Assembly: GCA_963768165.1 (NCBI GenBank)
Contig: CAVYHJ010000002.1
Location: 389,067 to 453,066 of the forward strand
Reading direction: 5' to 3'
Origin: an uncultured bacterium
GTDB lineage: Bacteria; UBP4; UBA4092
Length of the DNA: 64,000 nt
A program made the position numbers and the translations under genes. Shown here in pieces: positions 1,420-37,867 of the stretch; within the stretch, counting starts at the first letter, position 1; each line of letters starts with the position of its first letter. The notes beneath the pieces were generated by a model. That model did no database searches. It was not told the origin of the DNA and saw nothing but the letters and a program-made list of their open reading frames with translations.

Positions 1420-1875
1420 TTACTCAAAAATCTCCCATTCTCTCTTCTCAATCCCTGTAGGAACAAGAGGAGCGTATTCTACCGCATTACCGCCTGGATA
1501 CCCGCCTATCACATAAGCAGCAGAGGAGTTTTGTACAACCCCGAATCCCCCATCCCACATTTGTAATCCTGAGGTTAGTTCCCAATTCCCTAAACTTCCA
1601 TCCGGGTTGATGAGGGCTCGTTCGGTTACACTATCTCCTCCCCCGACGGCATTAAGATAAGTACCATCATAATATAAACCTCCTCCATCAGGTGCATCCA
1701 AATCAGCATTGACGGTTGTAAACGCACTCAATTGTCCATCGGGGAAAATAGTCGCTTTTTCTACGCTGTAAAGAGGAAATCCTGCACCATCTTCTCCTCC
1801 AACCACATACAGTGTGGTATTGACTATGATAGCCGAAAGATTATCCCTACCGGTAATTAAACCCAAAATAGTCAT
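1420..1875 (-). pseudogene. C-terminal fragment of a secreted Kelch-repeat beta-propeller gene split by IS insertion
   Basis: 151-aa ORF aligns with C-terminal ~150 aa of the intact paralogs at 4456-5493 and 5942-6976 (LITGRDNLSAIIVNTTLYVVGGEDG... ends EKREWEIFE like KKSEWEIFE/KKRDWEIFD). Confidence 0.8.
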
Positions 1876-3325
1876 TAGGAATCAAGTTTTAAGGATGAAA
1901 GGCCAGCTCATAAGGTCTGCCGAGGACCAAAGACCCGAGAACCAAGTTCGTCTTTTCATGGAAAGGGACAATTTAAGGATCCTTGAATTTCCCTTCTGAA
2001 TCAAATAGCCACCTACCGCAAAAACCTTATAGCGAATGGTTTTTAAAAAGGGCTTGGATGTCCCTCCGAGAAGGGCTTGCCGAAAAAGACTCATCAGATT
2101 ATACGCCAGCATCACGAAATTTAAGGTAGCCTCGGTGGCCCAAAAGTGATGGGTATTAAACCGGTCTGCCCCAAAGTCATACTTTACTTCTTTGATACGG
2201 TTTTCGGCATCGGCCCGATTGCGATACAGGTCATACACCATCTTGGGAGACAAGTCTACATTGGTCACAAAACAACTGTAGCGATACTTCTGGTAGAGGG
2301 TTTCGTCCGAAAACAAACGTAATTGTTTTCCCACCGCCTTGGGACGCTTTTCGATTTCCTGCCGAACCATAATCAGACGTCGGGGAGCCTTCCAGGAATC
2401 GGCTTGATAGAAGGTCTCGGCAATCTCCAATCCCTCGTCCAGTTTTAACCATCCCTTCTGCCGGAGGACCACCGCTTGAAGAGGAGGATAAAACTTGGCC
2501 GCCAGGATATAGGACGTCGGACGATGGGTTTCCAGATACTCCATGATTCTATCGCTGTAGAATCCACTATCCGCTCGAATCAACCCTACACTTTTCCCCT
2601 GAAGCTTGTTTAGGGTATCTTCCAAAAAACCTAAAAAATTATTGGTCGTGTGGCTGTCTCCGGACCGCAGCCAAAAATTAGCCACCATCCGACAATCGGG
2701 AATAAATGCCATCAACGGATGATGCGATTTTCTCCCCCGTTTCTTAGGATTATAGCCCTTCTTGCTCCCTTGCTGTTCCCCATAACGAGTCAGGACCGTG
2801 GAATCAAAATCCAAGGTATAGTTGTCAAAATGTATATTCCGAAAAAACCATTGATATAAATGCGTGAAAACCCGTTGATTGGTGGCTTGCGTAAATTTAT
2901 TGAAATAGCGTGCAAAGGCTTTATTCCCCGCCATCCGTTTCCAATCGAAGATCTCCTTGACCACTTCATCCTGTCGCGTCACTTCCAAATGCTCAAAACA
3001 ATTCGCCCCACACCATACCCCGACCCAAAAGTTCTGGATCAATTGACTGGGACGGTACCCTCGATTAGATCCTTGTTGGGGGAGTGGCGCTTCTTTCAGG
3101 GTCTCCTCCATCTGGATTTGCTCCAGCATCTTCCTCAGGATACTCATCCCACCCCAGGGGGTTATTTCTTTGTCTGTATATTCTATTTTTAGATTCTTCA
3201 TAATGTCCTTTATTCTTACACACCTTGACCCGTTTTTTAACCCCCCTTTGCCCAGGTCTATAGCACTCTATCTATTTAGGTTACCTATCTGTTTCTCTAA
3301 TGACCGCCATTAGAAACTATTGCCC
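1876..3325 (-). mobile_element. IS4-family insertion sequence interrupting the Kelch gene (boundaries approximate)
   Basis: Single 439-aa DDE transposase ORF (1882-3201) lies exactly between the N- and C-terminal halves of one Kelch gene; N-fragment reading frame runs into element-derived sequence and terminates (…SLTQIRQ*). Confidence 0.7.
1882..3201 (-). CDS. DDE transposase, IS4 family-like
   Basis: 439 aa; conserved C-terminal YxxRxxxE-type motif (LYRNRADAENRIKEVK) and overall IS4-like DDE transposase architecture. Confidence 0.7.
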   Translation of the reverse strand: MKNLKIEYTDKEITPWGGMSILRKMLEQIQMEETLKEAPLPQQGSNRGYRPSQLIQNFWVGVWCGANCFEHLEVTRQDEVVKEIFDWKRMAGNKAFARYFNKFTQATNQRVFTHLYQWFFRNIHFDNYTLDFDSTVLTRYGEQQGSKKGYNPKKRGRKSHHPLMAFIPDCRMVANFWLRSGDSHTTNNFLGFLEDTLNKLQGKSVGLIRADSGFYSDRIMEYLETHRPTSYILAAKFYPPLQAVVLRQKGWLKLDEGLEIAETFYQADSWKAPRRLIMVRQEIEKRPKAVGKQLRLFSDETLYQKYRYSCFVTNVDLSPKMVYDLYRNRADAENRIKEVKYDFGADRFNTHHFWATEATLNFVMLAYNLMSLFRQALLGGTSKPFLKTIRYKVFAVGGYLIQKGNSRILKLSLSMKRRTWFSGLWSSADLMSWPFILKT

Positions 3326-4015
3326 CTATTGACGAATTTGGGTTAAACTTGAAGATAATAATGTCCATGTCCCTAAAGATCCATCAGGATTAATAGTTGT
3401 CTGATAAATATTAGGACTCCCTGAAGAAAAACTACTAGGACTTCCTTGATACCCACCAATCACGTAGATAAATTGATTGTACTGAACTAAAGCTGATTCT
3501 CCAAATATCGTAGTAATACCTCCAATCGTCGTCCATACACCGAGAGTACCATTGGAGTTAATAGGTGCTCGTTCAATTGTAGTTAGAACACTAGATGCAT
3601 TTTCTCCCCCTATCGCATAGATATAAGAATCTGTGGCAAATCCTACCGCACCGCCTCGTGCCTCCACCATTTGAGAACTTTCTTCTACCCAAGGACTTAA
3701 TGTCCCATCAGATTGAATGGTGGCACATTCTACAGGATAGGGGGTATTGCTGTAGGGGTAGCCTCCAAAAGTGTAAATAATCGTGCTGCGAGATAAAACG
3801 GCTACATTACTGGAACGGGCTACATTCAAACTACTGGTATAATTCCAAGGACCCATCTGTCCGGCATAAGATGAGATTACCAGAAGAGTAAATAATCCTA
3901 GTAGAACACTGATATAAGATAGGCATCGGGAAAGGCTTTGAAAAGCAAGCCATTCCCGACGCAGATTCAAAACGAGATTACGTCGCTTTGCTCGTAATGA
4001 CAAAACCAATTTCAT
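3326..4015 (-). pseudogene. N-terminal fragment (signal peptide + first Kelch blades) of the IS-disrupted Kelch-repeat gene
   Basis: 229-aa ORF; residues from PWNYTSSLNVARSSNVAVLSRSTIIYTFGGYPYSNTPYPVECATIQ onward align with N-terminal two thirds of neighbouring Kelch paralogs, then diverge to IRQ* at IS junction. Confidence 0.8.
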
Positions 4016-4029
4016 ATCTATAGAGTATA

Positions 4030-4434
4030 TTACTCCGGTTTAATAATGGCTACTATATCTCGCATATAGGGTGGGATAGAAGTGGTCAAGGAAGTAGCCC
4101 CCGTCGTTGTTGTATCGGTTCCTATAACATTCCCTGTGCTGGATTCATACCAAGTGATTTGATACTGTCCTGAAGGAAATCCGTTGATTTGAATCATGGC
4201 ATCGGAGACGGTGCTATATTGTTCTCCCAAAAATCGTTTATCCTGAATTAACCAAAGTAATAGATTCTGGCTGTCCCCAGAATATATAGGAACAATCTCC
4301 CGGTAGGAAGAATCCGATGAAAGTACCGTATAAGTCGTAACCCGTCCAGTGGAATTTTGATTCACCCATTGAGTTAATCCTGCCCAATTAAATTGGTTAA
4401 CAATGGTAGCACGCGCTAGATGATCATTCATCAT
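4030..4434 (-). CDS. orphan copy of the ~125-aa C-terminal module of the giant protein (starts MMNDHLARATI..., ends IVAIIKPE)
   Basis: 134 aa; ~95% identical to ORF 5506-5976 and homologous to last ~140 aa of the 1748-aa protein; separated from upstream Kelch ORF by a single in-frame TAA (EIFE*YNGFDDNMMNDH). Confidence 0.6.
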   Translation of the reverse strand: MMNDHLARATIVNQFNWAGLTQWVNQNSTGRVTTYTVLSSDSSYREIVPIYSGDSQNLLLWLIQDKRFLGEQYSTVSDAMIQINGFPSGQYQITWYESSTGNVIGTDTTTTGATSLTTSIPPYMRDIVAIIKPE

Positions 4435-4455
4435 ATTATCATCGAAGCCATTGTA

Positions 4456-5493
4456 TTACTCAAATATCTCCCATTCGCTTTTTTTAACATCTGTGGTATT
4501 TAGGATTGGAGCGTATTGTACGGTATTAAATTCTCCACCATCAGAGGATGTACCACCAATTACATACGCATCATCTTTTGTTTGCACATATCCAAAAGCT
4601 AAAAGTTCTGTTTGCAGGTAGGGTGCCTCTTCCCATGCATCTAAAGTTCCATCGGTATTGATATTAGCTCTCTCTGAGTAATAGCTGGTAACAAAATAAG
4701 GTGCACCGCCAACTACATTTAGATATTGACCATCATAAAACAAACCACACCCATTATGTGGAACTGTTGTACCTCGTAATGTGGTAAATGCGCTCAATTC
4801 ACCATCCGATGAAATAGTTGCTTTTTCCACATCGTAGATATAACCGTTATTGAACCCACTTACTACATACATAGTAGTATTAATCAAAATTGCGCTCGGC
4901 CCTTCACCAGCTGTTACTAACTGTGATGTAAGTAGTGTCCACGTACCTAATGAACCATCTGGATTGATAATGGTTCGATAAATATAAGGAAGTACGTTGT
5001 ACCCTTGATATCCACTAATGACATAGATATATTGGTTATATTGAATTAATGCCGAATATCCAAAAGATACTGTACATGCCCCAATCGTTGTCCATGTCCC
5101 TAAAGTCCCATCGGAATTAATGGGTGCTCTCTCTATTGTGGTTAATATACTCGAAGCATTCTCTCCACAGATGGCATATACATAGGAATCTGTGGAGAAA
5201 CCTACAGCACCTTGTCTTGCCATAACCATTTGATTGCTTTCGATGGTCCAAGACGTTAAGGTTCCATCGGGTCTAAGGGTTGTATGTTCTACAGGGTAGG
5301 GTGTATTGGTATATGCCAGCCCACCAAAGGTATAAACGATAGTATCCCGTGCGATGACTGCCACATTATCGGAACGTGCTATGTTTAGGCTGCTAGCATA
5401 ACTCCAACTGCCTAAGGTGTAACTGGCAAAAGAATGGGCAGAAATACATATTATTAAAGGAAACAATACATATTTCTGCCAATGAATATTCAC
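4456..5493 (-). CDS. secreted Kelch-repeat beta-propeller protein (paralog 2)
   Basis: 345 aa; N-terminal signal peptide (…LIICISAHSFASYTLG); repeated Kelch-like blades with Y-x-x-GG and W motifs. Confidence 0.75.
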   Translation of the reverse strand: MNIHWQKYVLFPLIICISAHSFASYTLGSWSYASSLNIARSDNVAVIARDTIVYTFGGLAYTNTPYPVEHTTLRPDGTLTSWTIESNQMVMARQGAVGFSTDSYVYAICGENASSILTTIERAPINSDGTLGTWTTIGACTVSFGYSALIQYNQYIYVISGYQGYNVLPYIYRTIINPDGSLGTWTLLTSQLVTAGEGPSAILINTTMYVVSGFNNGYIYDVEKATISSDGELSAFTTLRGTTVPHNGCGLFYDGQYLNVVGGAPYFVTSYYSERANINTDGTLDAWEEAPYLQTELLAFGYVQTKDDAYVIGGTSSDGGEFNTVQYAPILNTTDVKKSEWEIFE

Positions 5494-5505
5494 AAATATA
5501 GTATA

Positions 5506-5976
5506 TTACTCCGGCTTGATAATGGCTACTATATCTCGCATATAGGGTGGGATAGAAGTGGTCAAGGAAGTAGCACCCGTCGTTGTTGAATCGGTTCCTA
5601 TAACATTTCCTGTGCTGGATTCATACCAGGTGATTTGATACTGTCCTGAAGGAAATCCGTTGATTTGAATCATGGCATCGGATACGGTGCTATATTGTTC
5701 CCCTAAAAATCGCTTATCCTGAATCAACCAAAGTAAGAGATTCTCACTATCCCCGGAATATATGGGAACAATCTCTCTGTAGGAAGAATCCACTAAAACT
5801 ACTGTATAAGTCGTAACCCTTCCAGTGGAATTTTGATTCACCCATTGAGTCAATCCTGCCCAATTAAATTGGTTGATAATAGTAGCACGCGCTAAATGGT
5901 CATTCATCATATTATCATCAAAGCCATTGTATCTTTGATTATTAATCAAAAATCTCCCAATCCCTCTTTTTAACAT
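5506..5976 (-). CDS. orphan copy of giant-protein C-terminal module (likely real start at internal ATGATG ~5910)
   Basis: 156-aa ORF, contains conserved junction YNGFDDNMMNDHLARATIINQFNWAG and C-terminus DIVAIIKPE; overlaps 3' end of Kelch 5942-6976 in another frame. Confidence 0.6.
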   Translation of the reverse strand: MLKRGIGRFLINNQRYNGFDDNMMNDHLARATIINQFNWAGLTQWVNQNSTGRVTTYTVVLVDSSYREIVPIYSGDSENLLLWLIQDKRFLGEQYSTVSDAMIQINGFPSGQYQITWYESSTGNVIGTDSTTTGATSLTTSIPPYMRDIVAIIKPE

Positions 5977-6976
5977 CTGTGGTATTCAGGATGGGCGCGT
6001 ATTCAACAACATTGGTATCACAGCATCCACCTATAACATAAGCATCTGTTGAAGTTTGAAGATAAGCAAATCCATCCCGTTCATCCTCTAAATAGGGTGC
6101 GGGTTCCCATGTCCCTAAGCTACCATCTGGATAGACCTGTGCTCGTTCAGAACGATAGTTACCATCTCCACCATAATACCCACCAATCACATTGAGATAC
6201 TCTCCATCGTAAAACAAACCTGGGTCATAATGAAATGCTACTGTATTACTAATTGTTGTAAACGTGCTTAGTTCCCCATCGGTGTATACAGTTGCCAGTT
6301 CAACACCTTTGGTATAACCAGCCACATAGATTGTGGTATTAATTAGGACTGTCGAAAAACTCCTCCTTCCTGTTACCAATTGTGAAGATAACAGAGTCCA
6401 TGTTCCCAATGACCCATCGGGATTAATAGTGGTTTGATAAACGTTTGAACTCCCCAAAGAACCTGTAGTTGTATTAAAATCATAACCTCCAATGATGTAT
6501 ATATAAGTCGAGGTTTGAACCAGCGAAGCCTCTGTAATCCCTGTAGGTAGAATGCTAATCGTAGTCCAAATACCTAGACTCCCATTAGGATTAATTTGTG
6601 CTCGTTCCGCAGTGGTACAATAAGTAACTCCGTTATCGCCACCGATAGCAAAAACATAGGAATCTGTCGCAAATCCAACTGCATCTTCTCTGGCACTTAT
6701 CATTTGAGTGCTTTCAATTACCCAATTGCTTAAGGTTCCATCAAGTTGAATTGTGGCACATTCCACAGGATAAGGAGTTGTCGTATAAGCATACCCCCCA
6801 AAAGTATAAATAATAGTACTCTGGGATAAAACTGCCACGTTGACAGAACGTGCCACATTTAAACTACTGGTATAATTCCAATTGCCTAATGTGTAGCTGG
6901 CAAACGAATGGGTAGAAATACAAATAATAAAAAACAACAAGAGGTAACGCTGTCGTTGAATTCTCATACATATCAA
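5942..6976 (-). CDS. secreted Kelch-repeat beta-propeller protein (paralog 1)
   Basis: 344 aa; signal peptide (…FFIICISTHSFASYTLG); ~55-65% identical to paralog 2 across Kelch blades. Confidence 0.75.
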   Translation of the reverse strand: MICMRIQRQRYLLLFFIICISTHSFASYTLGNWNYTSSLNVARSVNVAVLSQSTIIYTFGGYAYTTTPYPVECATIQLDGTLSNWVIESTQMISAREDAVGFATDSYVFAIGGDNGVTYCTTAERAQINPNGSLGIWTTISILPTGITEASLVQTSTYIYIIGGYDFNTTTGSLGSSNVYQTTINPDGSLGTWTLLSSQLVTGRRSFSTVLINTTIYVAGYTKGVELATVYTDGELSTFTTISNTVAFHYDPGLFYDGEYLNVIGGYYGGDGNYRSERAQVYPDGSLGTWEPAPYLEDERDGFAYLQTSTDAYVIGGCCDTNVVEYAPILNTTDVKKRDWEIFD

Positions 6977-6981
6977 GTATA

Positions 6982-9900
6982 TTACTCTGGCTTAATAATG
7001 GCTACTATATCTCGGAAGAACGTGGGGATAGGAGTGCTTTCCACATCCGTATAGGAATTCCATGTTAGATTAACAGTTGTAGACACACTAACTCCGGTGG
7101 TCGAATTATACCAAGTCAGTTGATAACTTCCCGGTGGAAAAGCGGATATCTGCATGTAGGTATTGGCAAGTGGGGGCGGAGTTTGATATAAAGAGCGGGA
7201 ATCCTGTATTAACCAAATCAATAAGTTTTGACTATCTCCTGAATAAATGGGAACAATACTCTCTGAAGAAGTACCTGAAAACGAAATCCGTCCCGTTGAT
7301 CCATTCTGATTCACCCATTGCGTAATTCCCGCCCAATTAAACTGATTAATAATAGTAGCACGCGCTAAATGGTCATTCATCATATTATCATCAAAGCCAT
7401 TGTATTCGTTTAAGTAGGGAGGTTCATTTACATAATAAGGTGGAAGTGTAGTATATTGGGTTAAATAAGTGACATTCCCAGGAAAGGTTGATGCAAATTT
7501 ATTATTAACATACATCCCATAATGATACCCTTCACCCGCGGCACCACTGGCAATATTCGCCCAACCCATAAAATGAAAATATTCATCATAGAGATTCTCG
7601 TTGATATGACGGTCTACCAGATTGACGGCACTCGCGGACAGTCCTGTTGCATTATCATAGGTGGTATCCCCCCAATACTGTGGACTTAATGTCCAAGGTC
7701 CTTCATAATCTCCCGGTCCCATGAAGGTACAGATATAAGGTTTGGAAGAGGTCTCCATACTAAAAGCCAATTTAATAGTTTGAAACATATCTATTCCCGC
7801 TTCAATACACGCCGAATCAATTAGATATTGAGGGGATGTCGCGTCATACCAATTGGAACCGGGACCAGCAGTTGTAGCCTGTATCCAGAGCGGAAAGCTG
7901 ATAGGCAATGTCGTCACGACACCATACGGAGCGGTCGTAACTGTCACATAGACCGGATGGGTCGCTACCACATCCAACAAGGGATGCTGGAAATAAATGG
8001 GTTTAGTATAAGCTGTAGAATTCCCGGTATTGACCGCTGATAGAGGAACCGCAATATCCAATCCTTGAGACTTTGCATACATGGGTCGTATTCTAGCTGT
8101 AGGATAATCAATATCCGATCCGATGGGTCCGGGATTGGAGGCTCCTGACGACACACTCACAATATGTCCATGTCCCCATTTTTGGAGTTCATAATTTTTG
8201 ATGAACCCGGCAATCTGGGTGACCCAGTTTTCTTTGATACTATCATTCACAGCAGATGTGGTTGAAATATCCCCGATATAATTAAGTTCCGGCATTGGAT
8301 CCCACAGAACGATTCCCGCCCGGTCTCCCCAGTGGTCAATATAATACTGCAAGGTGGTTTCTGCAGTAATGATGGCGGTCTGTTCACTCAGAACCTGTCC
8401 CGGTGAAGTCACCGAACCGTATAATATGTTGGAACCACTATACCAAAAATTATATTGTGACCGTGGATTGGCTGCCACCCAATTGGCAGAATCGGGTGCG
8501 ACTCCCGAAAGCGTAAAGATTCCCAACCAATAGGTCATTTGATATTTATCCAGTTCATTCAAATGTTGATCCATCCATATCGCCGTTGCATCGCTAAAAA
8601 TTGTATTTCCGGTAGAATCGTGCGTTTCTACGGTATACCACGTCGTAACATTATCAGGATAACCATAAGGACTTGGTGGATTTTCAAAAAATCCCCGTGC
8701 CATGCTGTTAAACCCATGTGCTTTCGCCCATGCCAAATAATTATCCTCTTGCGGTAATGAAAGATTATCTTGATATTCTATAATAGGGTACTTGGCGCTA
8801 AATCCCATCGGGAAGTAGGGAGTACCGTCTTCGTATTCAAAAAGCCTGCCATTCTGGGCTACTTCAATAAACCCCCGATCAAGGTAATGGTACCCAATAT
8901 TAACAGTTCCACTGTCTAACGTTTGATTGGTAGCGGTACTGCCATAAGCACGGACAGTGGTGTCTCCTGAATGAACCAGAGGACTGGTACCTAGATGATT
9001 ATATGAACTCTGTACCAACCCGTTACTGTCATAGTTCATGGCATACCAGGCATCTTCATATATTCCTGTCATGCCGGTGTTTACACGATAACTGCTGCCA
9101 TCCAAGGCCGCCCAATACCACACTTGGCCTTCGTACACCGAAACCTTGGGGAGACACACCTGGTTGGAATTACTGCCAAACAGCAGGGTAATCGAATCGG
9201 TTGAACAGATGGTCCACCCATTCGCACCAGCGCTCAGGGTGATTAAGATATTTCCCAGTCCGGAACCGGTGGATGTATACGACCAACCACCCCCATTCAA
9301 CGTTGTAGCATACCCCAGTTGCGTACTCCCGCTCAATCCGTTGGCATAGGAAGATATCGTGATCTTGACACCTCTTGGAGGTGTACTGGCAAACGAATAA
9401 GACATCCCTGACACGCCACTAATTTGCAGAGGGAACCGGCTGGCGTCCCCAGTCGTCGAGGCCAGGTAATATCCGTCAAAGGACCCGCTCCCGCTATTGG
9501 CAAATTGGGGATTAGCGGTAATGAGATTGCTATTGGTCGGGTCACCGCTATAGTCCAAGGTATTGTTGTATAGATTATTATTTGTAACAGTCCCTTCAAT
9601 ATATCCAGATGTTAAATATATTCCGGTAGAGAATCTAGAGACTATGTTATTTCGTATATCCACATTACTGGTAATATTTGTAGTCGCTACCCCATAAATT
9701 CCATACCAACCCGATCCATTCCCTACTAGCGTATTATTACGAAGGATAGCATTGTCATTGGAAGAGGAGATTGTCCATAGCAAAATCTGGTACTGGTTGT
9801 TATTTCCCGCGAGAAACAGATTATTCTCTGCTCGAACATAGGAATCCACAGCCGCAATCCCGTCCCGACAATCATAGAAAACATTATCGTTAATCCGATG

Positions 9901-12228
9901 ATAGAGAACGGTTCCTGAATCTAAATCAATCCCTGCGGCGGCATACCTGAAAATACAATTCTGAATGATACTATTGGGACCTAAATTTTGACCGATTTCA
10001 ATACCAATAAAGTAACTATACAAACCATCGGCTCCCAAAGGGTGGGTCATCATATCCCCGGTCGCATAAATGGTATTAAATTCAATCCGGTTATTGGCAT
10101 GACCGTGAGCAATAATATTGGCGTAATTCCAGCTAAATAATTGTGAGATATTCGCTGAGACACTACGCCAAAAAGAAACCACCACACCCGGTAAGATAGT
10201 CAAGGTCGCACTATCCACACCACTCGTTCCAATTGTTAAAGTAGAATATGTACCGGAATTACCCACCACGACATCTACGGGGTCATAGTGATACCCAATA
10301 TCCACAATTCCCGTATTGCGAGGAACTTCCGACCACGTGGTGCTGGCGGTGATGGTGTTGGGCGCTTGAACCGGCGCAACTGTGGTCTTGTTTTGTAATC
10401 CATAATATGCGGCTGTGGTATCCCCTGCGCTAGTAGCCCCACTGACCGAAGGATTCAGATAATATGAACCATTGGCTGAAGTTGCATAAGGATTCGTATT
10501 GATTGACCCTTCTCCAGTGTTTTGACCGATAGAACCATAATAATTGGAATAATCTTGATAAAATTTGTTATAGGAATGTGCGTTCCCAAATCCGTTTACC
10601 GCGCTCAATCCGTAAAAACAGTTGGTGATTAAATTATTACGGCAATCGACAAAGGCACCGTTATATCCGAGGATGCCATTACCCGTACCTGCGCCATCCA
10701 CTGTATTATTCAGTGCCACCACATAGGCCACTGTATCATTGGCTATCGCATAAATTCCTGTAGGGAAAGAAATATATCGGGAGCCTGAATAGATGAGATT
10801 ATTCATTACGGTAATCCGACTATTGGTTCCGTTGAGGGATAAATATATTCCATTGGTAGAACATTGTTGGATGATATTATTTTGGATAGGGGTATTGAGA
10901 TTCGTGTAAATATCCAATCCATCGGTGGCATAGGCGATCTTACAATATTGAATCTGGCTACTGGCTGAAGCCCCTGATTGCAGAGAAATGGCGGTCCCGT
11001 AATCTCCACCTGTCGCTGTGCTGAAAGTGGTACTCACCGAATCACCCATTGTGGTATCTTTCCAACTGGTGAAGAGGACGTAATCGAAAGTGGTTCCAAC
11101 AGAAAGAATTTTTGCACCGGAAGGGACCGTAATCGAAGCACCGGAAGTATATTTACAGACCGTCCCTCCTTCAATCACCAAGGTCCACGGAGCACTAAGG
11201 GTATAGGTTCCACTGAGATAATAGGTATTCCCTGATTTCCAGACTTGATTACCCGTTTGTGTGCCTGTTTTAATGTTGTAATCCAAAGTAACCGGAAAGG
11301 AAGCCGATACCAAAAAACTATAAGGAATTCCCTCGACCAAATATGTGTGACCATTTTGTTGGTAGAGAAATTTGTACATCGTGATGGATTGTTTTACAGG
11401 ACTACTGTCAAAGGCGGGACTTTGCGCAACGTAACAGAGAGCTTGACCAGTTGAGGCATCCGCAAAATAAAAATCTTTTCCTTCACCGGACAGAAAACCG
11501 GATTGCAGTGTTTGTCCGGTATAATCCTGAATAGAACAGGCAAAAATCGAGGTGTCTATTTCGGTAACACTCACCAAATAAGCGGTTCGGGGATCCATTT
11601 GATAATGGCTGGGAGAAGGTAATGCTTGAAGACTTCTTACTATCAAGTTTTGTTGAAAAGAACCTTTGCCATAACAAAAAGACAAATCTATTCCCGGAAA
11701 GATATTGGTATAGGTCAAAGTATTGCCTTGGAGAGTGGGAGGAACCGCATTAATCGCACCCAGAGGTTGAAGGGTATTATTACCTTTATCGTAAAAAGCC
11801 AAATACCGCAAGCCCAATTGCATGATTTTCCCATTCACCGTATAACCAATCGGCCATTGGGTATCTAATCCAGCGCCGAATTGGATTTGATAAGGACCTT
11901 GCAGAGCTTGATAGGTTCCATTTTCGGTGGATTGAATACTCTCGACCGATACCTGCCAATTGTTGGCCGTATCCTGGAAACATAACCCATCGGCTTTTTC
12001 TGTTACAAAACGAGTAACCGTTACCTGGGACATCGCCATCGTTGTAACATCAACATCATCCACGACTTTTTGTATTTGCCAGACACGGGTGTTGGCGTTT
12101 CTCCCAGAAACGATTTCTGTGGGACTTCCTGCGGGTGGCGTACTTCCAACTACGCTGGCGATGGAAAAAGTGCACAGCGTCAACAAACATAAAATAAAAA
12201 AGCACGTTCTCTTACTGGATGTAGTCAT
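6982..12228 (-). CDS. giant secreted protein (1748 aa) with signal peptide, right-handed parallel beta-helix repeats, a glycoside-hydrolase-like barrel and the shared ~125-aa C-terminal module
   Basis: Signal peptide MTTSSKRTCFFILCLLTLCTFSIASVVG; many PbH1-type repeats (NNLIYSGSRYISF…, NNLITNCFYGLSAV…, NNTLVGNGSGWYGIYG…); GH-like segment (NGRLFEYEDGTPYFPMGF…); C-terminal …NEYNGFDDNMMNDHLARATIINQFNWAGITQW…DIVAIIKPE. Confidence 0.75.
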   Translation of the reverse strand: MTTSSKRTCFFILCLLTLCTFSIASVVGSTPPAGSPTEIVSGRNANTRVWQIQKVVDDVDVTTMAMSQVTVTRFVTEKADGLCFQDTANNWQVSVESIQSTENGTYQALQGPYQIQFGAGLDTQWPIGYTVNGKIMQLGLRYLAFYDKGNNTLQPLGAINAVPPTLQGNTLTYTNIFPGIDLSFCYGKGSFQQNLIVRSLQALPSPSHYQMDPRTAYLVSVTEIDTSIFACSIQDYTGQTLQSGFLSGEGKDFYFADASTGQALCYVAQSPAFDSSPVKQSITMYKFLYQQNGHTYLVEGIPYSFLVSASFPVTLDYNIKTGTQTGNQVWKSGNTYYLSGTYTLSAPWTLVIEGGTVCKYTSGASITVPSGAKILSVGTTFDYVLFTSWKDTTMGDSVSTTFSTATGGDYGTAISLQSGASASSQIQYCKIAYATDGLDIYTNLNTPIQNNIIQQCSTNGIYLSLNGTNSRITVMNNLIYSGSRYISFPTGIYAIANDTVAYVVALNNTVDGAGTGNGILGYNGAFVDCRNNLITNCFYGLSAVNGFGNAHSYNKFYQDYSNYYGSIGQNTGEGSINTNPYATSANGSYYLNPSVSGATSAGDTTAAYYGLQNKTTVAPVQAPNTITASTTWSEVPRNTGIVDIGYHYDPVDVVVGNSGTYSTLTIGTSGVDSATLTILPGVVVSFWRSVSANISQLFSWNYANIIAHGHANNRIEFNTIYATGDMMTHPLGADGLYSYFIGIEIGQNLGPNSIIQNCIFRYAAAGIDLDSGTVLYHRINDNVFYDCRDGIAAVDSYVRAENNLFLAGNNNQYQILLWTISSSNDNAILRNNTLVGNGSGWYGIYGVATTNITSNVDIRNNIVSRFSTGIYLTSGYIEGTVTNNNLYNNTLDYSGDPTNSNLITANPQFANSGSGSFDGYYLASTTGDASRFPLQISGVSGMSYSFASTPPRGVKITISSYANGLSGSTQLGYATTLNGGGWSYTSTGSGLGNILITLSAGANGWTICSTDSITLLFGSNSNQVCLPKVSVYEGQVWYWAALDGSSYRVNTGMTGIYEDAWYAMNYDSNGLVQSSYNHLGTSPLVHSGDTTVRAYGSTATNQTLDSGTVNIGYHYLDRGFIEVAQNGRLFEYEDGTPYFPMGFSAKYPIIEYQDNLSLPQEDNYLAWAKAHGFNSMARGFFENPPSPYGYPDNVTTWYTVETHDSTGNTIFSDATAIWMDQHLNELDKYQMTYWLGIFTLSGVAPDSANWVAANPRSQYNFWYSGSNILYGSVTSPGQVLSEQTAIITAETTLQYYIDHWGDRAGIVLWDPMPELNYIGDISTTSAVNDSIKENWVTQIAGFIKNYELQKWGHGHIVSVSSGASNPGPIGSDIDYPTARIRPMYAKSQGLDIAVPLSAVNTGNSTAYTKPIYFQHPLLDVVATHPVYVTVTTAPYGVVTTLPISFPLWIQATTAGPGSNWYDATSPQYLIDSACIEAGIDMFQTIKLAFSMETSSKPYICTFMGPGDYEGPWTLSPQYWGDTTYDNATGLSASAVNLVDRHINENLYDEYFHFMGWANIASGAAGEGYHYGMYVNNKFASTFPGNVTYLTQYTTLPPYYVNEPPYLNEYNGFDDNMMNDHLARATIINQFNWAGITQWVNQNGSTGRISFSGTSSESIVPIYSGDSQNLLIWLIQDSRSLYQTPPPLANTYMQISAFPPGSYQLTWYNSTTGVSVSTTVNLTWNSYTDVESTPIPTFFRDIVAIIKPE

Positions 12229-12272: not shown

Positions 12273-12300
12273 ATTATAAACCCAATTTCGATTCTGTCAA
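12273..12300 (-). promoter_or_regulatory. candidate sigma-70 promoter for the giant-protein/Kelch gene string
   Basis: On minus strand: TTGACA (12295-12300) - 17/18 nt - TATAAT (12273-12278), ~45 nt upstream of ATG 12228 which is preceded by GAGGG. Confidence 0.45.
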
Positions 12301-14240: not shown

Positions 14241-15560
14241 ATGATATCGTTATCAAGAAAACAAAAAAAGAATTTACAATCTCTCATACTTCTTCTCATT
14301 ATCAATCTATTATTGGCATCCTGTACTTCTACCAAGATGGATAACCAGGACGATGTCACTCTCCAGTTCTGCACTTTTAATGGCGGGGAGAATTTCCAAT
14401 GGGACCAAAAAATTCTTGATAAATTTATGGAACTCCATCCCCATATTAAAGTTAAAAATCTCTATGCCCCTTGGGGAAGTTATACGGAAAAAGTACTGGT
14501 ATTAACCGTCGGCGGCATTTCCCCGGATGTTCTGTGGACTATTTCAGGAGATTTGCCTTTTTATGCCTCCCGGAATGTCATCATGGATTTAACGGATTTG
14601 GTCTATAAAGACCCGAGTATCGATACCAGTAAATATTTCCCCAACGCCTTAAATCTCTGCTCTTATAAAGGGAGACTATTTGCACTACCCCGGGATGTTT
14701 GTTGTTTATTTTATGTCTATAACAAAGACATGTTTGATAAAGACAAAGTCTCTTATCCCGATACCCAATGGACTTGGGATGATTTCCTGGCTATCACTAA
14801 AAAATTAACCAAAACCCAAAATGGCCGGATTGTTCAATTCGGGACAGGAAGCGGCAGCGGCGTTGCCTATTATTGGGACGATGTCGTTCATGAAAATAAT
14901 GCTGCTCCCCTCAGTCCTGACGGGAGAGAATCTTGGGTTACCCGACCGGAGTTCTATGAACCCATTCAATGGTGGCTTAATTTGTATCTCATTCATCATG
15001 TGGCACCTTCCTCCTCTGAAGCATCAGGGTTTGGTGGGGATTTATTTCAAAATGGTAAGGTTGCTACATCGATGACCGGACCATGGATTTTTACCGGGTA
15101 TAAAAGAGATCTTAAGTTTCGATACGATATTGTCAACATCCCTAGAGGTAAATATGGGAATAAAGTCAGCCTCCTAGGGTTGCCCATTGCTATCTCCAAA
15201 TATACCAAACACCCCAAAGAAGCGTACGAATTATTAAAGTTCTTAACCTATAGTGATATCGCGCAAACTATGCAAGCCCAAATGGGTATAGGTATGCCCT
15301 CCCGAAAAGATATAGCCATGTCCGATGTCTATTTGAAACAACCGGTCATACCTGAACATGTCAATCTCTATATGAAATCCATGTTGGAATATACCTATGT
15401 CCCCGATTCTCTCCCATATGCCAAACAGATTTATGACCAGATTAATGCGGGCATTGAACTAGCTCAACTGGGGAAAATGTCCGTCAAAGATGCCATGCAA
15501 CTCAAACAACCAATCATTCAGAAAATTATCAATAAATCTATAAAGAAAGGTGAACTCTAA
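14241..15560 (+). CDS. ABC transporter solute-binding lipoprotein, paralog 2
   Basis: 439 aa; signal + LASC lipobox; same conserved blocks as paralog 1. Confidence 0.8.
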   Translation: MISLSRKQKKNLQSLILLLIINLLLASCTSTKMDNQDDVTLQFCTFNGGENFQWDQKILDKFMELHPHIKVKNLYAPWGSYTEKVLVLTVGGISPDVLWTISGDLPFYASRNVIMDLTDLVYKDPSIDTSKYFPNALNLCSYKGRLFALPRDVCCLFYVYNKDMFDKDKVSYPDTQWTWDDFLAITKKLTKTQNGRIVQFGTGSGSGVAYYWDDVVHENNAAPLSPDGRESWVTRPEFYEPIQWWLNLYLIHHVAPSSSEASGFGGDLFQNGKVATSMTGPWIFTGYKRDLKFRYDIVNIPRGKYGNKVSLLGLPIAISKYTKHPKEAYELLKFLTYSDIAQTMQAQMGIGMPSRKDIAMSDVYLKQPVIPEHVNLYMKSMLEYTYVPDSLPYAKQIYDQINAGIELAQLGKMSVKDAMQLKQPIIQKIINKSIKKGEL

Positions 15561-36466: not shown

Positions 36467-37867
36467 GTGATTCCATTGACCGATACGACACAAGAGAATT
36501 TATTTAGTGGAGAATTAAAAAGTCTGTGTAATCCCCGCCATCCGTTAATTCAACTGGCCCATCAGATGGAATGGGGAGAACTGGAGGCCGCCTTTGCGGG
36601 GTGTTATTGTCCGGATTTCGGACGTCCCTGCAAACCCATTCGATTACTGGTGGGGATCCATTATTTAAAGCATGCCTATCACTTGAGCGATGAGGAAGTC
36701 GTGGAGCGCTTGGCGGAAAATCCGTACTGGCAATACTTTTGTGGGTTTGAGTATTTTCAGAGGGAGCTTTTCCTGAATGCCAGCTTATTGAGTAAATGGC
36801 GTAAACGGATCCAGCAACAGAAGATGGAGAAGCTCTTAGAGGTGACCATTACCACAGGGTTGAAGACGGGTGCCTTGAAGCGGAGGCAGTTGGCCAAACT
36901 GAATGTGGATACGACGGTGCAGGAGAAAGCAATTACCTATCCCACGGATGCGAAACTGTACCTGAAGATGTTGCAACGCTTGGTGAATCTGTGCCACCAG
37001 GAAGGGATTGAACTGCGGCAGAGCTATACCCGCAAAGCCAAGAAGAGTTTATTTTTGTATCATCGGTATGCCCATGGGCGTAAGGGGAAGAAGGCGCAGA
37101 AGGAATGGAAGAAGTTAAAGGTGTACTTGGGACGGGTGAGTCGGGATGTAGGTCGGAAGGTCCTGAAGGCAAACCGGGAGGAACTCTGGGAGGTATTGGG
37201 ACCGGAATTAGCCATGGCCCAGAGGTTGTTGGAGCAAAAGCGAGAGGATTCTCCGAAACTGTATAGTTTGCATGCCCCGGAGGTGGAATGTATCGCCAAA
37301 GGTAAAGCCCATAAGAAATATGAGTTTGGCTGCAAGGTGAGTGTGGTAGCGACTTCTCAAGATCCGTTCATTGTAGGCATGCAAGCGCTTCACGGGAATC
37401 CCTATGACGGACATACCTTAGAGCAGGCCTTGAAACAGGCCGAGCGGTTGGGACATTTTCAAGCTCAGGAGGTGTATGCGGATCAAGGGTATCGGGGACA
37501 CGATTATGCGGGAGAGGCTACGATTCATCTCAGTCGGTGGAAGTTATCCGGACTCAAAGAATCGGTCATTCGATGGATTAAACGCCGGAGTGCGATTGAA
37601 CCCGTGATCGGACATGCCAAAACCGATGGATGGTTAGGACGAAACTATCTGAAGGGAACCCACGGCGATCACATCAATGCGATCCTCTGCGGATGTGGGT
37701 ACAATATCCGCAAGCTTCTAAGGAAGCTTCTTTTTGTCCTTTGGAAAATTCGGCTCGGGAGGTTCCTTTCTCTCTCCCAAAGTTCCCTCTTTGTGTCCTA
37801 CAATCTAAAAAAGAAACTTTTTCAGGGACATCTAAGTAGAGTCTTGTCCAATACAAGAGAATGCTAA
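36467..37867 (+). CDS. IS5-family DDE transposase of a third, unrelated IS (element ends not resolved)
   Basis: 466 aa; N-terminal transposase-IS4-like helix region, C-terminal NPYDGHTL…ADQGYRG…IEPVIGHAKTDGWLGRNYLKGTHGDHINAILCGCGYNIRKLLR. Confidence 0.7.
   Translation: MIPLTDTTQENLFSGELKSLCNPRHPLIQLAHQMEWGELEAAFAGCYCPDFGRPCKPIRLLVGIHYLKHAYHLSDEEVVERLAENPYWQYFCGFEYFQRELFLNASLLSKWRKRIQQQKMEKLLEVTITTGLKTGALKRRQLAKLNVDTTVQEKAITYPTDAKLYLKMLQRLVNLCHQEGIELRQSYTRKAKKSLFLYHRYAHGRKGKKAQKEWKKLKVYLGRVSRDVGRKVLKANREELWEVLGPELAMAQRLLEQKREDSPKLYSLHAPEVECIAKGKAHKKYEFGCKVSVVATSQDPFIVGMQALHGNPYDGHTLEQALKQAERLGHFQAQEVYADQGYRGHDYAGEATIHLSRWKLSGLKESVIRWIKRRSAIEPVIGHAKTDGWLGRNYLKGTHGDHINAILCGCGYNIRKLLRKLLFVLWKIRLGRFLSLSQSSLFVSYNLKKKLFQGHLSRVLSNTREC

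What the first reader, a model, noticed from the sequence alone, without database searches (positions are those of the whole stretch)
4434..4460. Kelch gene and downstream module in the same frame, separated only by one TAA
On the minus strand the sequence reads …gag ata ttt gag TAA tac aat ggc ttc gat gat aat atg atg…, i.e. EIFE*YNGFDDNMMNDH. The Kelch ORF 4456-5493 and the module ORF are therefore continuous apart from a single ochre codon. The residues just after the stop (YNGFDD) match the in-frame junction of the giant protein (NEYNGFDD). This could be a separate gene starting at ATGATG with no obvious SD, a site of programmed stop-codon readthrough, or a recent nonsense mutation in a Kelch-module fusion.
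Basis: seen in the sequence. Interest (0 to 1): 0.55.

Follow-up and report, generated by a model that had tools for sequence, protein, structure and literature searches.

The report
Duplication scar, not stop-codon readthrough
The single in-frame TAA is the Kelch gene's normal stop codon, sitting at the seam of an old tandem duplication that copied the tail of a giant secreted glycoside-hydrolase-like gene together with its neighbouring Kelch gene; the shared frame is inherited from that seam, not evidence of readthrough or of a broken fusion gene.

Summary
On the minus strand, Kelch2 (4456-5493) ends gag-TAA (4458-4456), and the module ORF (ATG 4434) follows in the same frame.

- **What the TAA is.** It lies at the junction of a ~1476-bp tandem repeat: giant gene tail ('module') + Kelch1, module1 + Kelch2, module2 + Kelch3 (IS-disrupted).
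- **What the module is.** It is a helix plus beta-sandwich that ends GH5-like enzymes. The two downstream copies are 5'-truncated paralogs of the giant gene's 3' end.
- **No fusion gene.** Every close Kelch homolog ends WEIFx-stop at 329-372 aa, and no Kelch-module fusion was found.
- **The frame is not maintained.** The same in-frame junction occurs in one relative (L011), so it is probably the ancestral seam. The Kelch1-module1 junction (+10 nt) and relatives L005 and L006 are out of frame, yet all tested modules stay under strong purifying selection (dN/dS 0.04-0.17).
- **No readthrough signals.** UAA-U is the strongest bacterial terminator context, and no RNA structure follows the stop.

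Programmed readthrough and a recent nonsense mutation are therefore both unlikely.

Still open: how modules lacking an SD and a signal peptide are used. They may be translated separately from the conserved Met-Met, or kept as silent C-terminal cassettes.

The parts
4456..4458 (-). TAA stop codon of Kelch2, followed by T (UAA-U context); the focus of the finding
   Evidence: identical in independent assembly L010
4456..5493 (-). Kelch2 gene: 345 aa, signal-peptide-like N-terminus, ends ...SEWEIFE*
   Evidence: weak Kelch-repeat Pfam hits; close homologs 329-372 aa ending WEIFx*
4435..4455 (-). Seven sense codons (YNGFDDN) between the stop and ATGATG. They are homologous to giant-gene codons at 7384-7404 and mark the 5' edge of the duplicated unit.
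4030..4434 (-). Module2 ORF: 134 aa from MMNDH, no SD, no signal peptide. It is a 5'-truncated paralog of the giant protein's C-terminal helix plus beta-sandwich.
4431..4463 (-). Short +1-frame ORF: TTG(4463-4461) MSNTMASMII, ending in TGA(4433-4431). GGGAG (4472-4468) lies upstream, and the TGA overlaps ATGATG. It is a possible route for coupled re-initiation (inferred only).
   Evidence: frame table; sequence
5506..5931 (-). Module1, homologous from YNGFDD onwards. The ORF is open upstream to ATG 5976 in the +1 frame of Kelch1. It is 96% identical to module2 in protein.
5932..5941 (-). Ten extra bases at the Kelch1-module1 junction, relative to Kelch2-module2. They put module1 out of frame with Kelch1.
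5942..6976 (-). Kelch1 gene (344 aa, ends ...DWEIFD*)
   Evidence: Kelch_1 32 bits, cut-off 20.1
6982..12228 (-). Giant secreted protein: 1748 aa, with beta-helix repeats and a GH5-like region. Its last 140 aa (6985-7404) are the founding copy of the module.
3326..4015 (-). Kelch3, 5' part, cut by an IS insertion
1861..3343 (-). IS element with a DDE_Tnp_1_4 transposase (1882-3201) and 23-nt imperfect terminal inverted repeats. It interrupts Kelch3. Boundaries are approximate.
1420..1860 (-). Kelch3, 3' part, ending ...REWEIFE TAA
1408..1419 (-). TAT AAT GCC TTT directly after the Kelch3 stop. It resembles the first four module codons, and homology to the module ends here. This is the array end, and a similar remnant occurs in L011.
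12273..12300 (-). Perfect TTGACA-16-TATAAT promoter-like site upstream of the giant gene. The scan found terminator-like sites inside the array no more often than in shuffles, which fits one operon.

Best explanation
The TAA at 4456-4458 is the ordinary stop codon of Kelch2. It lies exactly at the seam of an old tandem duplication.

**Shown:** a unit of ~1476 bp is repeated three times head to tail. Each unit holds the last ~140 codons of a giant secreted GH5-like gene plus the Kelch gene downstream of it.

**Inferred:** the seam formed where the sequence just after a Kelch stop (GAG TAA TAT AAT GCC TTT) resembles the giant gene at GAA TAC AAT GGC TTT. The new copy of the giant gene's tail therefore begins at YNGFDD, directly after the Kelch stop, and happened to land in the same frame.

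**Shown:** that frame is inherited, not selected. Other copies of the seam have shifted frame while their modules remain conserved.

**Shown:** the module ORFs are real coding sequence under purifying selection.

**Inferred:** ribosomes terminate at UAA-U. Module2 is then made as a separate 134-aa product from the family-conserved Met-Met (ATG 4434/4431), probably by re-initiation coupled to upstream translation. The Kelch2 stop lies 21 nt upstream. A 10-codon +1-frame ORF starting at a TTG behind GGGAG ends in a TGA that overlaps ATGATG.
For: **Tandem repeat.**
- Copies lie 1473-1476 bp apart.
- Junction alignments show homology to the giant gene starting at ATACAATGG. The same 12-15 nt also follow the last Kelch, where no module follows.

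**Module identity.**
- The long profile hits that matched a Pfam family carry a GH5/Cellulase match N-terminal to the module, including P0015, P0019 and P0023.
- The AF2 model (pLDDT 74.5) is a helix plus 8 strands. It best matches the C-terminal part of the GH5 mannanase ManDH5, and also GH140, GH66 and GH30 enzymes.
- Giant homolog L008 carries the module in frame with no stop.

**Kelch ends at this stop everywhere.**
- The 12 closest homologs are 329-372 aa. The eight homologs read, like the window's own copies, end WEIFx*, apart from P0050, which carries a 25-aa tail.

**Frame not conserved.**
- Kelch1-module1 has 10 extra nt.
- L005 (two junctions) and L006 are in the +1 frame.
- The in-frame type is shared only with L011.

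**Purifying selection whatever the frame.**
- module1 vs module2: 25 synonymous and 7 nonsynonymous changes, dN/dS 0.066, P = 3e-11.
- L005 modules: dN/dS 0.17, P = 9e-11.
- L011 modules: dN/dS 0.042, P = 2e-16.

**No readthrough signals.**
- UAA-U context (PMC5289835).
- No stable RNA structure after the stop (z = 0.17).
- No tRNA gene in the window.

**Real sequence.** The junction is identical in an independent assembly.
Against: - **No start signals.** No SD precedes ATG 4434, although many genes in this window have AAGGAG/GGAGG 7-8 nt upstream.
- **No export signal.** The module ORF has no signal peptide, yet its parent domain works as part of a secreted protein. A free cytoplasmic module is functionally odd.
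- **Odd domain boundary.** The copy appears to start with what is probably the last helix of the catalytic barrel, not at a clean domain boundary.
- **Conserved leader codons.** The 21 nt between TAA and ATGATG differ from module1 at only 1 site, where about 5-6 would be expected if neutral. That fits these codons being translated or recently gene-converted.
- **Old junction.** The in-frame junction has persisted in two divergent lineages.
- **Unclear origin of the seam.** The microhomology may instead be the remnant of a deleted terminal module.
Confidence: 0.8

Rival explanations
1. Silent C-terminal cassettes. The module copies are not translated in place. They serve as a reservoir that recombines into the 3' end of the giant gene through the conserved 5' stretch (YNGFDDNMMNDHLARATIINQFNWAG) and 3' stretch (RDIVAIIKPE-TAATATACT). 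This would swap the enzyme's terminal beta-sandwich, much as orphan cdiA-CT or rhs-CT fragments do. On this view the TAA is simply the upstream gene's stop, and the lack of start signals is expected.
For: - **Anatomy matches CDI/Rhs orphan arrays** described in PMC3150448. A full-length gene is followed by 5'-truncated C-terminal fragments, each paired with a downstream gene. The fragments lack initiation signals, keep a conserved boundary motif, vary in how much upstream sequence they retain, and are sometimes hit by IS elements. Here the evidence is (L007 keeps ~56 more codons).
- **Mosaic identity.** The giant gene and the modules are 84-98% identical over the first ~100 nt, 33-64% in the core, and 87% at the 3' end. 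The giant gene and module1 share a 57-nt perfectly identical tract.
- **No SD and no signal peptide**.
- **In-frame stops in relatives.** L002/L003, L004 and L006 have stops in or at the module 5' region.
- **Possible recombinant.** Contig L001, from another assembly of the same species, joins the Kelch1-module1 junction to a giant-type module.
- **Selection.** Purifying selection would act whenever a cassette is in the expression site.
Against: - The 5' stretch is conserved mainly at the protein level (pN 0.02-0.03). Its synonymous divergence is still 0.35-0.53, so recent gene conversion is not shown.
- Module1 and module2 are 96% identical, so the array offers little diversity.
- The partner Kelch genes do not co-vary with the modules: Kelch2 and Kelch3 are 59% identical, against 96% for their modules.
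- The fold is a glycoside-hydrolase accessory domain, not a toxin.
- L001 can be an assembly chimera across the 57-nt identical stretch.
Confidence: 0.13
2. Programmed or tolerated stop-codon readthrough. A fraction of ribosomes read through the Kelch2 TAA and make a secreted ~487-aa Kelch-module fusion. The Kelch signal peptide would then carry the module out of the cell.
For: - Same frame with a single stop and no SD or start immediately after it.
- The identical junction type persists in a distant relative, L011.
- The terminal Kelch of L011 has CAA at the stop position and reads on for 25 codons.
- The seven codons between the stop and ATGATG are conserved.
- Readthrough would solve the missing-signal-peptide problem.
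Against: - UAA-U is reported as the most efficient bacterial termination signal (PMC5289835).
- No RNA structure follows the stop.
- Four other junctions (Kelch1-module1, L005 twice, L006) are out of frame, yet their modules are equally constrained. No shared slippery motif explains them; for example, L005 junction 1 lacks the T5 run.
- No fusion protein exists among 38 module hits or 120 listed Kelch hits.
- The CAA variant extends into non-module sequence.
Confidence: 0.04
3. Decaying leftovers. The module ORFs are non-functional pseudogene fragments of the giant gene, left behind by duplication. The in-frame stop then has no meaning.
For: - The copies are 5'-truncated, with no SD and no signal peptide.
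- Kelch3 in the same array is already destroyed by an IS.
- Relatives L004 and L006 have stops that remove the N-terminal helix.
Against: - The synonymous excess is strong in three independent lineages: P = 3e-11, 9e-11 and 2e-16.
- The module ORFs remain intact, although the flanking Kelch genes are saturated at synonymous sites (dS 1.7-2.8).
Confidence: 0.03

Closest known systems
Tandem segmental duplication whose boundary falls inside a gene, leaving 5'-truncated gene copies
   Same: - Head-to-tail units of ~1476 bp.
- The junction coincides with a short stretch of similarity between the two parental sites.
- The truncated copy starts at the seam.
- Later indels (10 nt) and an IS insertion have modified individual units.
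   Different: - The truncated copies have not decayed. They are under strong purifying selection in three lineages.
- The array is old: the Kelch paralogs are saturated at synonymous sites.
Orphan cdiA-CT/cdiI and rhs-CT/rhsI arrays of polymorphic toxin loci (PMC3150448, PMC3967940)
   Same: - A large secreted protein gene is followed by fragment-plus-partner gene pairs.
- The fragments lack translation initiation signals and keep a conserved motif at their 5' edge.
- The 5' extent varies between loci.
- IS elements occur in the array.
- The orphans stay intact.
   Different: - The repeated domain is a glycoside-hydrolase C-terminal beta-sandwich, not a toxin.
- The orphans are near-identical to each other, not unrelated.
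- The partner is a 345-aa secreted Kelch beta-propeller, not a small immunity protein.
- No CDI, T6SS or Rhs core features were seen.
Programmed stop-codon readthrough (for example the phage Q-beta A1 protein at UGA; from general knowledge)
   Same: Two coding regions lie in one frame, separated by a single stop. The downstream part has no start signals of its own right at the seam.
   Different: - The stop here is UAA-U, not a leaky UGA.
- There is no stimulatory structure.
- The frame is not conserved among paralogous and orthologous junctions.
GH5-family enzymes with a C-terminal beta-sandwich, such as ManDH5 of Dictyoglomus thermophilum (PDB 9gpg) and BVU_2644 (4qfu)
   Same: - The module model aligns over ~138 columns with the C-terminal part of these enzymes (TMq 0.58).
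- Distant sequence relatives (P0023, P0015, P0019) have a GH5/Cellulase Pfam match N-terminal to the module.
   Different: - Sequence identity is only ~15%.
- Here the domain also occurs as free-standing ORFs alternating with Kelch genes, an arrangement not seen for those enzymes.

Membership tests
Programmed stop-codon readthrough (recoding site) | Leaky stop codon or context (typically UGA, or a weak +4 base) | tested here: not met
   The stop is TAA followed by T. UAAU is reported as the most efficient bacterial terminator (PMC5289835).
Programmed stop-codon readthrough (recoding site) | The in-frame relation of upstream ORF and extension is conserved across homologous junctions | tested here: not met
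   In frame: window Kelch2-module2 and L011. Out of frame: window Kelch1-module1 (+10 nt), L005 twice, and L006. The out-of-frame modules are equally constrained.
Programmed stop-codon readthrough (recoding site) | Stimulatory RNA structure downstream of the stop | tested here: not met
   Window 4360-4475(-) folds at -20.7 kcal/mol, against a shuffle mean of -21.2 (z = 0.17).
Programmed stop-codon readthrough (recoding site) | Detectable extended protein product | not testable with these tools
   This needs proteomics or ribosome profiling of the organism.
Kelch-module fusion gene inactivated by a nonsense mutation | Relatives encode an uninterrupted Kelch-module protein | tested here: not met
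   The 12 closest Kelch homologs are 329-372 aa; those read end WEIFx* apart from P0050. None of the 38 module-profile hits has a Kelch N-terminus. P0050 has CAA at the stop position but reads into non-module sequence.
Tandem segmental duplication | Head-to-tail direct repeats with a constant period that cover the same gene content | tested here: met
   Repeat families have 1473-1476 bp spacing. The three units align end to end.
Tandem segmental duplication | A junction that joins the 3' flank of the unit to an internal point of the upstream gene, with similarity at the join | tested here: met
   GAG TAA TA[CT] AAT G[GC]C TT[TC] occurs after Kelch2 and after Kelch3. The giant gene has GAA TAC AAT GGC TTT. 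Whether this is true microhomology or a remnant of a lost module is unresolved.
Orphan C-terminal cassette arrays (CDI/Rhs type) | A full-length gene followed by 5'-truncated C-terminal fragments, each with a partner gene | tested here: met
   The same layout is seen in L005, L006, L007 and L011.
Orphan C-terminal cassette arrays (CDI/Rhs type) | The C-terminal regions are polymorphic (unrelated between cassettes) and encode toxins neutralised by the partner | tested here: not met
   Module1 and module2 are 96% identical, and both are 64% identical to the giant copy. The fold is a GH accessory beta-sandwich. Toxicity and immunity were not testable.
Orphan C-terminal cassette arrays (CDI/Rhs type) | Evidence of recombination between the orphans and the expressed gene | tested here: inconclusive
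   There is a 57-nt identical tract and a mosaic identity profile, but synonymous divergence in the 5' stretch is 0.35-0.53. Contig L001 may be a recombinant or a chimera.
C-terminal beta-sandwich domain of GH5-like glycoside hydrolases | Follows a GH5/cellulase-type catalytic domain in full-length homologs | tested here: met
   P0015, P0019 and P0023 carry PF00150 upstream of the module match. In the giant gene and in L008 the module is in frame after ...GWANIASGAAGEGYHYG....
C-terminal beta-sandwich domain of GH5-like glycoside hydrolases | Fold similarity to solved examples | tested here: met
   Foldseek against 9gpg_A (ManDH5, GH5) gives E = 4.6e-5 and TMq 0.58 over 138 columns. GH140, GH66 and GH30 enzymes also match. 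The model has pLDDT 74.5 from a 5-sequence alignment.
Kelch-repeat beta-propeller | Kelch repeat profile matches | tested here: met
   Kelch1 scores 32 bits against PF01344 (cut-off 20.1). Kelch2 has only sub-threshold hits, but its close homologs carry several Kelch/beta-propeller Pfam families.

The most novel reading that the evidence does not exclude
The alternating module and Kelch genes form a conserved, non-toxin counterpart of CDI/Rhs orphan arrays. On this reading, start-less, signal-peptide-less copies of the terminal helix and beta-sandwich of a giant secreted GH5-like enzyme are kept intact by selection. They would be recombined into the expressed gene through its conserved flanks, changing the enzyme's terminal domain and possibly its pairing with a Kelch partner. 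The in-frame TAA would then be a by-product of cassette architecture.
Probability: 0.15. Interest if true: 0.6.

Novelty: new variant of a known kind. Interest (0 to 1): 0.3.

Why it matters
**For the finding as posed, little.** It removes a candidate for bacterial UAA readthrough and shows an ordinary stop at a duplication seam.

**The surrounding locus is more interesting.**
- A very rare protein module is involved. A word-indexed search of 5.8 billion sequences returned four clusters.
- It alternates with secreted Kelch propellers downstream of a giant GH5-like gene.
- The truncated copies are conserved in at least three lineages, although they lack start and export signals.

If they prove to be exchangeable cassettes, or a separately made subunit, that would extend the 'orphan C-terminal module' idea beyond toxins. 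It would also give a handle on the function of this uncharacterised enzyme-Kelch pairing.

Tried and rejected
1. **My own first inference was wrong.** I first concluded that the 13-nt out-of-frame spacer was ancestral and the in-frame junction a derived 10-bp deletion. L011 overturned this. It carries the same in-frame TAA-TAC-AAT junction and a homologous array-end remnant, which makes the in-frame seam the likely ancestral state.
2. **Spacer homology.** Homology of the 10-13-nt spacers to the giant gene's YLNE codons is not better than shuffles (p = 0.35 and 0.54).
3. **Frameshift signals at out-of-frame junctions.**
   - There is no X XXY YYZ heptamer.
   - P-site re-pairing is poor for a +1 shift at the stop.
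   - The T5 run is absent from L005 junction 1.
4. **Scans with the module alignment.** The GTDB representative genomes and the JGI metagenome contigs both gave no relatives.
5. **Scan with the Kelch alignment.** The GTDB genomes gave only a 29%-identical Saccharimonadales protein, so the organism could not be placed.
6. **Word-indexed search with the giant protein's last 630 aa.** Nothing passed, apparently because the candidate list saturated at 8000.
7. **PDB sequence search with the same region.** No meaningful hit.
8. **NCBIfam** finds nothing for the module, Kelch2 or the giant protein. **Pfam** finds nothing for the module.
9. **Contigs that could not be fetched.** P0001 and P0046 were not on record, and the P0010 contig has no DNA.
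10. **The second 439-aa ORF (14241-15560)** is not related to the IS transposase.
11. **No tRNA gene**, and so no suppressor tRNA, lies in the window.
Full report
**1. Observation**

The minus strand reads gag ata ttt gag TAA(4458-4456) tac aat ggc ttc gat gat aat ATG(4434) ATG. Translating 4030-5493(-) gives one frame with a single stop...SEWEIFE*YNGFDDNMMNDHLARAT.... The giant ORF 6982-12228(-) contains ...LNEYNGFDDNMMNDH... in frame.

An independent Logan assembly contig (L010) is 100% identical across the junction. TAA is a normal stop here. It ends 33 of 45 long ORFs, including LepA and AccC, which end at their expected profile lengths.

**2. Anatomy of the locus**

Direct-repeat families spaced 1473-1476 bp apart and a full alignment of the units show a three-unit tandem array on the minus strand:

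| Unit | Module copy | Kelch gene |
|---|---|---|
| A | last 140 codons of the giant gene (6985-7404) | Kelch1 (5942-6976) |
| B | module1 (5506-5931) | Kelch2 (4456-5493) |
| C | module2 (4030-4455) | Kelch3 (3326-4015 + 1420-1860) |

- Kelch3 is split by an IS carrying a DDE_Tnp_1_4 transposase.
- A perfect TTGACA-16-TATAAT site lies upstream of the giant gene. Terminator-like sites in the array are no more frequent than in shuffles. This fits a single operon.

**3. The seam**

The junctions align as follows:

| Position | Sequence |
|---|---|
| giant gene | ...AAC GAA TAC AAT GGC TTT GAT... |
| Kelch2-module2 | GAG TAA TAC AAT GGC TTC GAT |
| after Kelch3 (no module follows) | GAG TAA TAT AAT GCC TTT CTC... 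|

After Kelch3, homology to the module stops at that point. The orphan copies therefore begin exactly at YNGFDD because that is where the duplicated unit begins, and the TAA is the Kelch stop abutting it.

The sister junction Kelch1-module1 has 10 extra bases (GAT TAA TAATCAAAGA TAC AAT). Module1 is therefore in the +1 frame of Kelch1.

**4. What the module is**

- **Rarity.** Pfam and NCBIfam find nothing. A word-indexed search of 5.8 billion proteins returned four clusters.
- **Architecture.** An exhaustive profile search found 38 proteins. In the long hits that matched a Pfam family, the module lies C-terminal to a GH5/Cellulase match. P0023, at 481 aa, is one example.
- **Fold.** The AF2 model (pLDDT 74.5) is an N-terminal helix plus eight strands. 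Its best structural matches are the C-terminal parts of the GH5 mannanase ManDH5 (TMq 0.58) and of GH140, GH66, GH30 and other GH5 enzymes.

The module is therefore the terminal helix plus beta-sandwich of a GH5-like enzyme. That the helix is the last barrel helix is my inference. In giant homolog L008 the module is in frame with no stop.

**5. Kelch proteins stop here everywhere**

The 12 closest Kelch2 homologs are 329-372 aa. The eight homologs whose sequences were read, like the window's own Kelch copies, end WEIF[DENQK]-stop, with one exception. The exception is P0050, the last Kelch of array L011. It has CAA where the others have TAA and runs on for 25 residues of non-module sequence.

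No Kelch-module fusion appears in either search. The 'recent nonsense mutation in a fusion' reading is rejected.

**6. Orthologous and paralogous junctions**

| Locus | Junction state |
|---|---|
| L011 | Kelch ...WEIFK TAA TAC AAT CCC TTC..., module in the same frame; same seam as the window |
| L011, array end | CAA TTT AAT GCC TCT, homologous to the window's TAA TAT AAT GCC TTT |
| L005 (two junctions) | module in the +1 frame |
| L006 | module in the +1 frame, with a TAG just before the helix codons |
| L007 | orphan keeps ~56 more upstream codons |
| L002/L003 | giant-like upstream codons, then an in-frame TAA at the His of NDHLARA, followed directly by TTG |
| L004 | TAA at a Leu codon of the module |

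The in-frame seam is therefore probably ancestral. This corrects my own intermediate conclusion. The frame has been lost repeatedly.

**7. Selection**

| Comparison | Result |
|---|---|
| module1 vs module2 | 25 synonymous, 7 nonsynonymous; dN/dS 0.066; binomial P = 3e-11 |
| giant copy vs orphans | dN/dS 0.25-0.31 |
| L005 modules | dN/dS 0.17; P = 9e-11 |
| L011 in-frame orphan vs upstream copy | dN/dS 0.042; P = 2e-16 |
| L011 N-terminal 55 codons vs L005 | pN 0.27, pS 0.74 (constrained) |

The orphans are not decaying, whether or not they share the Kelch frame. So the frame is not what keeps them functional.

The Kelch paralogs are saturated at synonymous sites (dS 1.7-2.8). The two orphans differ by dS 0.33. 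The array is therefore old, and the modules have been homogenised or duplicated more recently.

**8. Readthrough signals**

- The stop is UAA with +4 U, reported as the most efficient bacterial termination signal (PMC5289835).
- The RNA around and after the stop folds no better than shuffles.
- No tRNA gene lies in the window.
- The out-of-frame junctions share no slippery motif.

**9. How module2 might be expressed (inferred, unresolved)**

- No SD precedes ATG 4434, whereas many genes in the window have AAGGAG/GGAGG 7-8 nt upstream.
- The Met at NMMNDH is conserved across most of the family, including inside giant genes. L011 has a TTG one codon downstream of it. L002 has a TTG immediately after its TAA.
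- In the window, a TTG (4463-4461) lies 4 nt after GGGAG (the W-E codons of Kelch). It opens a 10-codon +1-frame ORF whose TGA (4433-4431) overlaps ATGATG.
- In module1 and in L005 that same TTG is in the module frame.
- Coupled re-initiation is thus plausible but untested. Public annotation calls both orphans as 134-aa proteins.

**10. The main rival for the orphans' role**

The anatomy parallels CDI/Rhs orphan arrays (PMC3150448). A big secreted-protein gene is followed by start-less C-terminal fragments with a conserved 5' motif, each paired with a partner gene, and IS elements occur in the array.

Points that fit silent cassettes:
- no signal peptide;
- a boundary that appears to fall inside the catalytic domain;
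- mosaic identity to the giant gene (84-98% at the 5' ~100 nt, 33-64% in the core, 87% at the 3' end);
- a 57-nt identical tract;
- the possible recombinant contig L001.

Points against:
- the 5' stretch is conserved mainly at the protein level (pS 0.35-0.53);
- the orphans are nearly identical to each other;
- Kelch partners do not co-vary with them;
- the domain is not a toxin;
- L001 can be an assembly chimera.

**11. Verdict**

The finding is a correct observation with an ordinary explanation: a Kelch stop codon at an inherited duplication seam. Programmed readthrough (~4%) and a nonsense-mutated fusion are not supported.

The locus itself is a rare, conserved array of truncated GH5-tail modules alternating with Kelch genes. 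It is a modestly novel variant of known orphan-fragment arrays. The use of the modules remains to be shown experimentally.

Noticed in passing
window 1861-3343 (approx.), minus strand: An IS element with a 439-aa DDE_Tnp_1_4 transposase (1882-3201) and 23-nt imperfect terminal inverted repeats is inserted in Kelch3, at the codons for ...LLSSSL|ITGRD.... Joining the flanks restores a full Kelch ORF.
   Followed up: partly
window 12273-12300, minus strand: A perfect sigma-70 consensus (TTGACA, 16 nt, TATAAT) lies about 45 nt upstream of the giant gene's ATG. It is the only 12/12 match in the 11.4 kb scanned.
   Followed up: no
window 7004-6976, 5528-5500, 4052-4024, minus strand: Each module's 3' end, including its stop (TAGCCA-17 nt-TATACT, that is ...VAIIKPE TAA TATACT), is a repeated promoter-like match just upstream of each Kelch gene. 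The ...KP[EQ]-TAATATA sequence is also kept in relatives L002 and L004. It may be a Kelch promoter or a recombination handle.
   Followed up: no
window 5437-5480, minus strand: A 19-pair hairpin (GGCAGAAATATGTATT...AATATGTATTTCTGCC) lies in the first codons (signal-peptide region) of Kelch2. It could influence Kelch2 translation initiation.
   Followed up: no
L001 (GCA_052916125.1 contig JBLFKT010067196.1), 1-1017: This contig comes from another assembly of the same species; bases 261-1017 are 99.9% identical to the window. It joins the Kelch1 end and its 10-nt junction to the giant-type module and then to the Kelch1 start. It is either a real recombinant or duplicated unit, or an assembly chimera across the 57-nt stretch identical between the giant gene and module1.
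   Followed up: partly
L002/L003 bases 1-70; L004 bases 1-20: Relatives carry in-frame TAA codons inside the module's 5' region: ...KEYNPLDDKMFND*LAFSKIINAFPW and SG*SQWENQ. L002 and L003 come from two different assemblies yet start at the same base, which suggests a repeat boundary there.
   Followed up: partly
L011 2800-2905 and L012 (P0050): The last Kelch of a related array has CAA (Gln) where all other Kelch genes have their TAA stop. It therefore carries a 25-residue Ser/Pro/Thr-rich tail (QFNASPNSSSKTTSPTPPPFILI). The codons after it resemble the remnant after the window's Kelch3.
   Followed up: partly
L008 and L011 (both from run ERR11523654, like L010): The sequencing run that contains the window's exact sequence also contains a diverged giant-module-Kelch locus (~68-70% nt identity) and a further Kelch/module array. 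These could be paralogous loci of one genome or related organisms in the community. Which it is was not resolved.
   Followed up: no
window 36467-37867, plus strand: An IS5-family transposase (NF033578, E = 4e-151) is a second, unrelated mobile element in the window.
   Followed up: no
window 6985-7404, 5509-5931, 4033-4455 and relatives: The Met of ...N-M-[MF]-N-D... at the module start is conserved across most of the family, including inside full-length giant genes (window, L008, P0009). This raises the possibility of internal initiation at that position in the giant mRNA as well.
   Followed up: no
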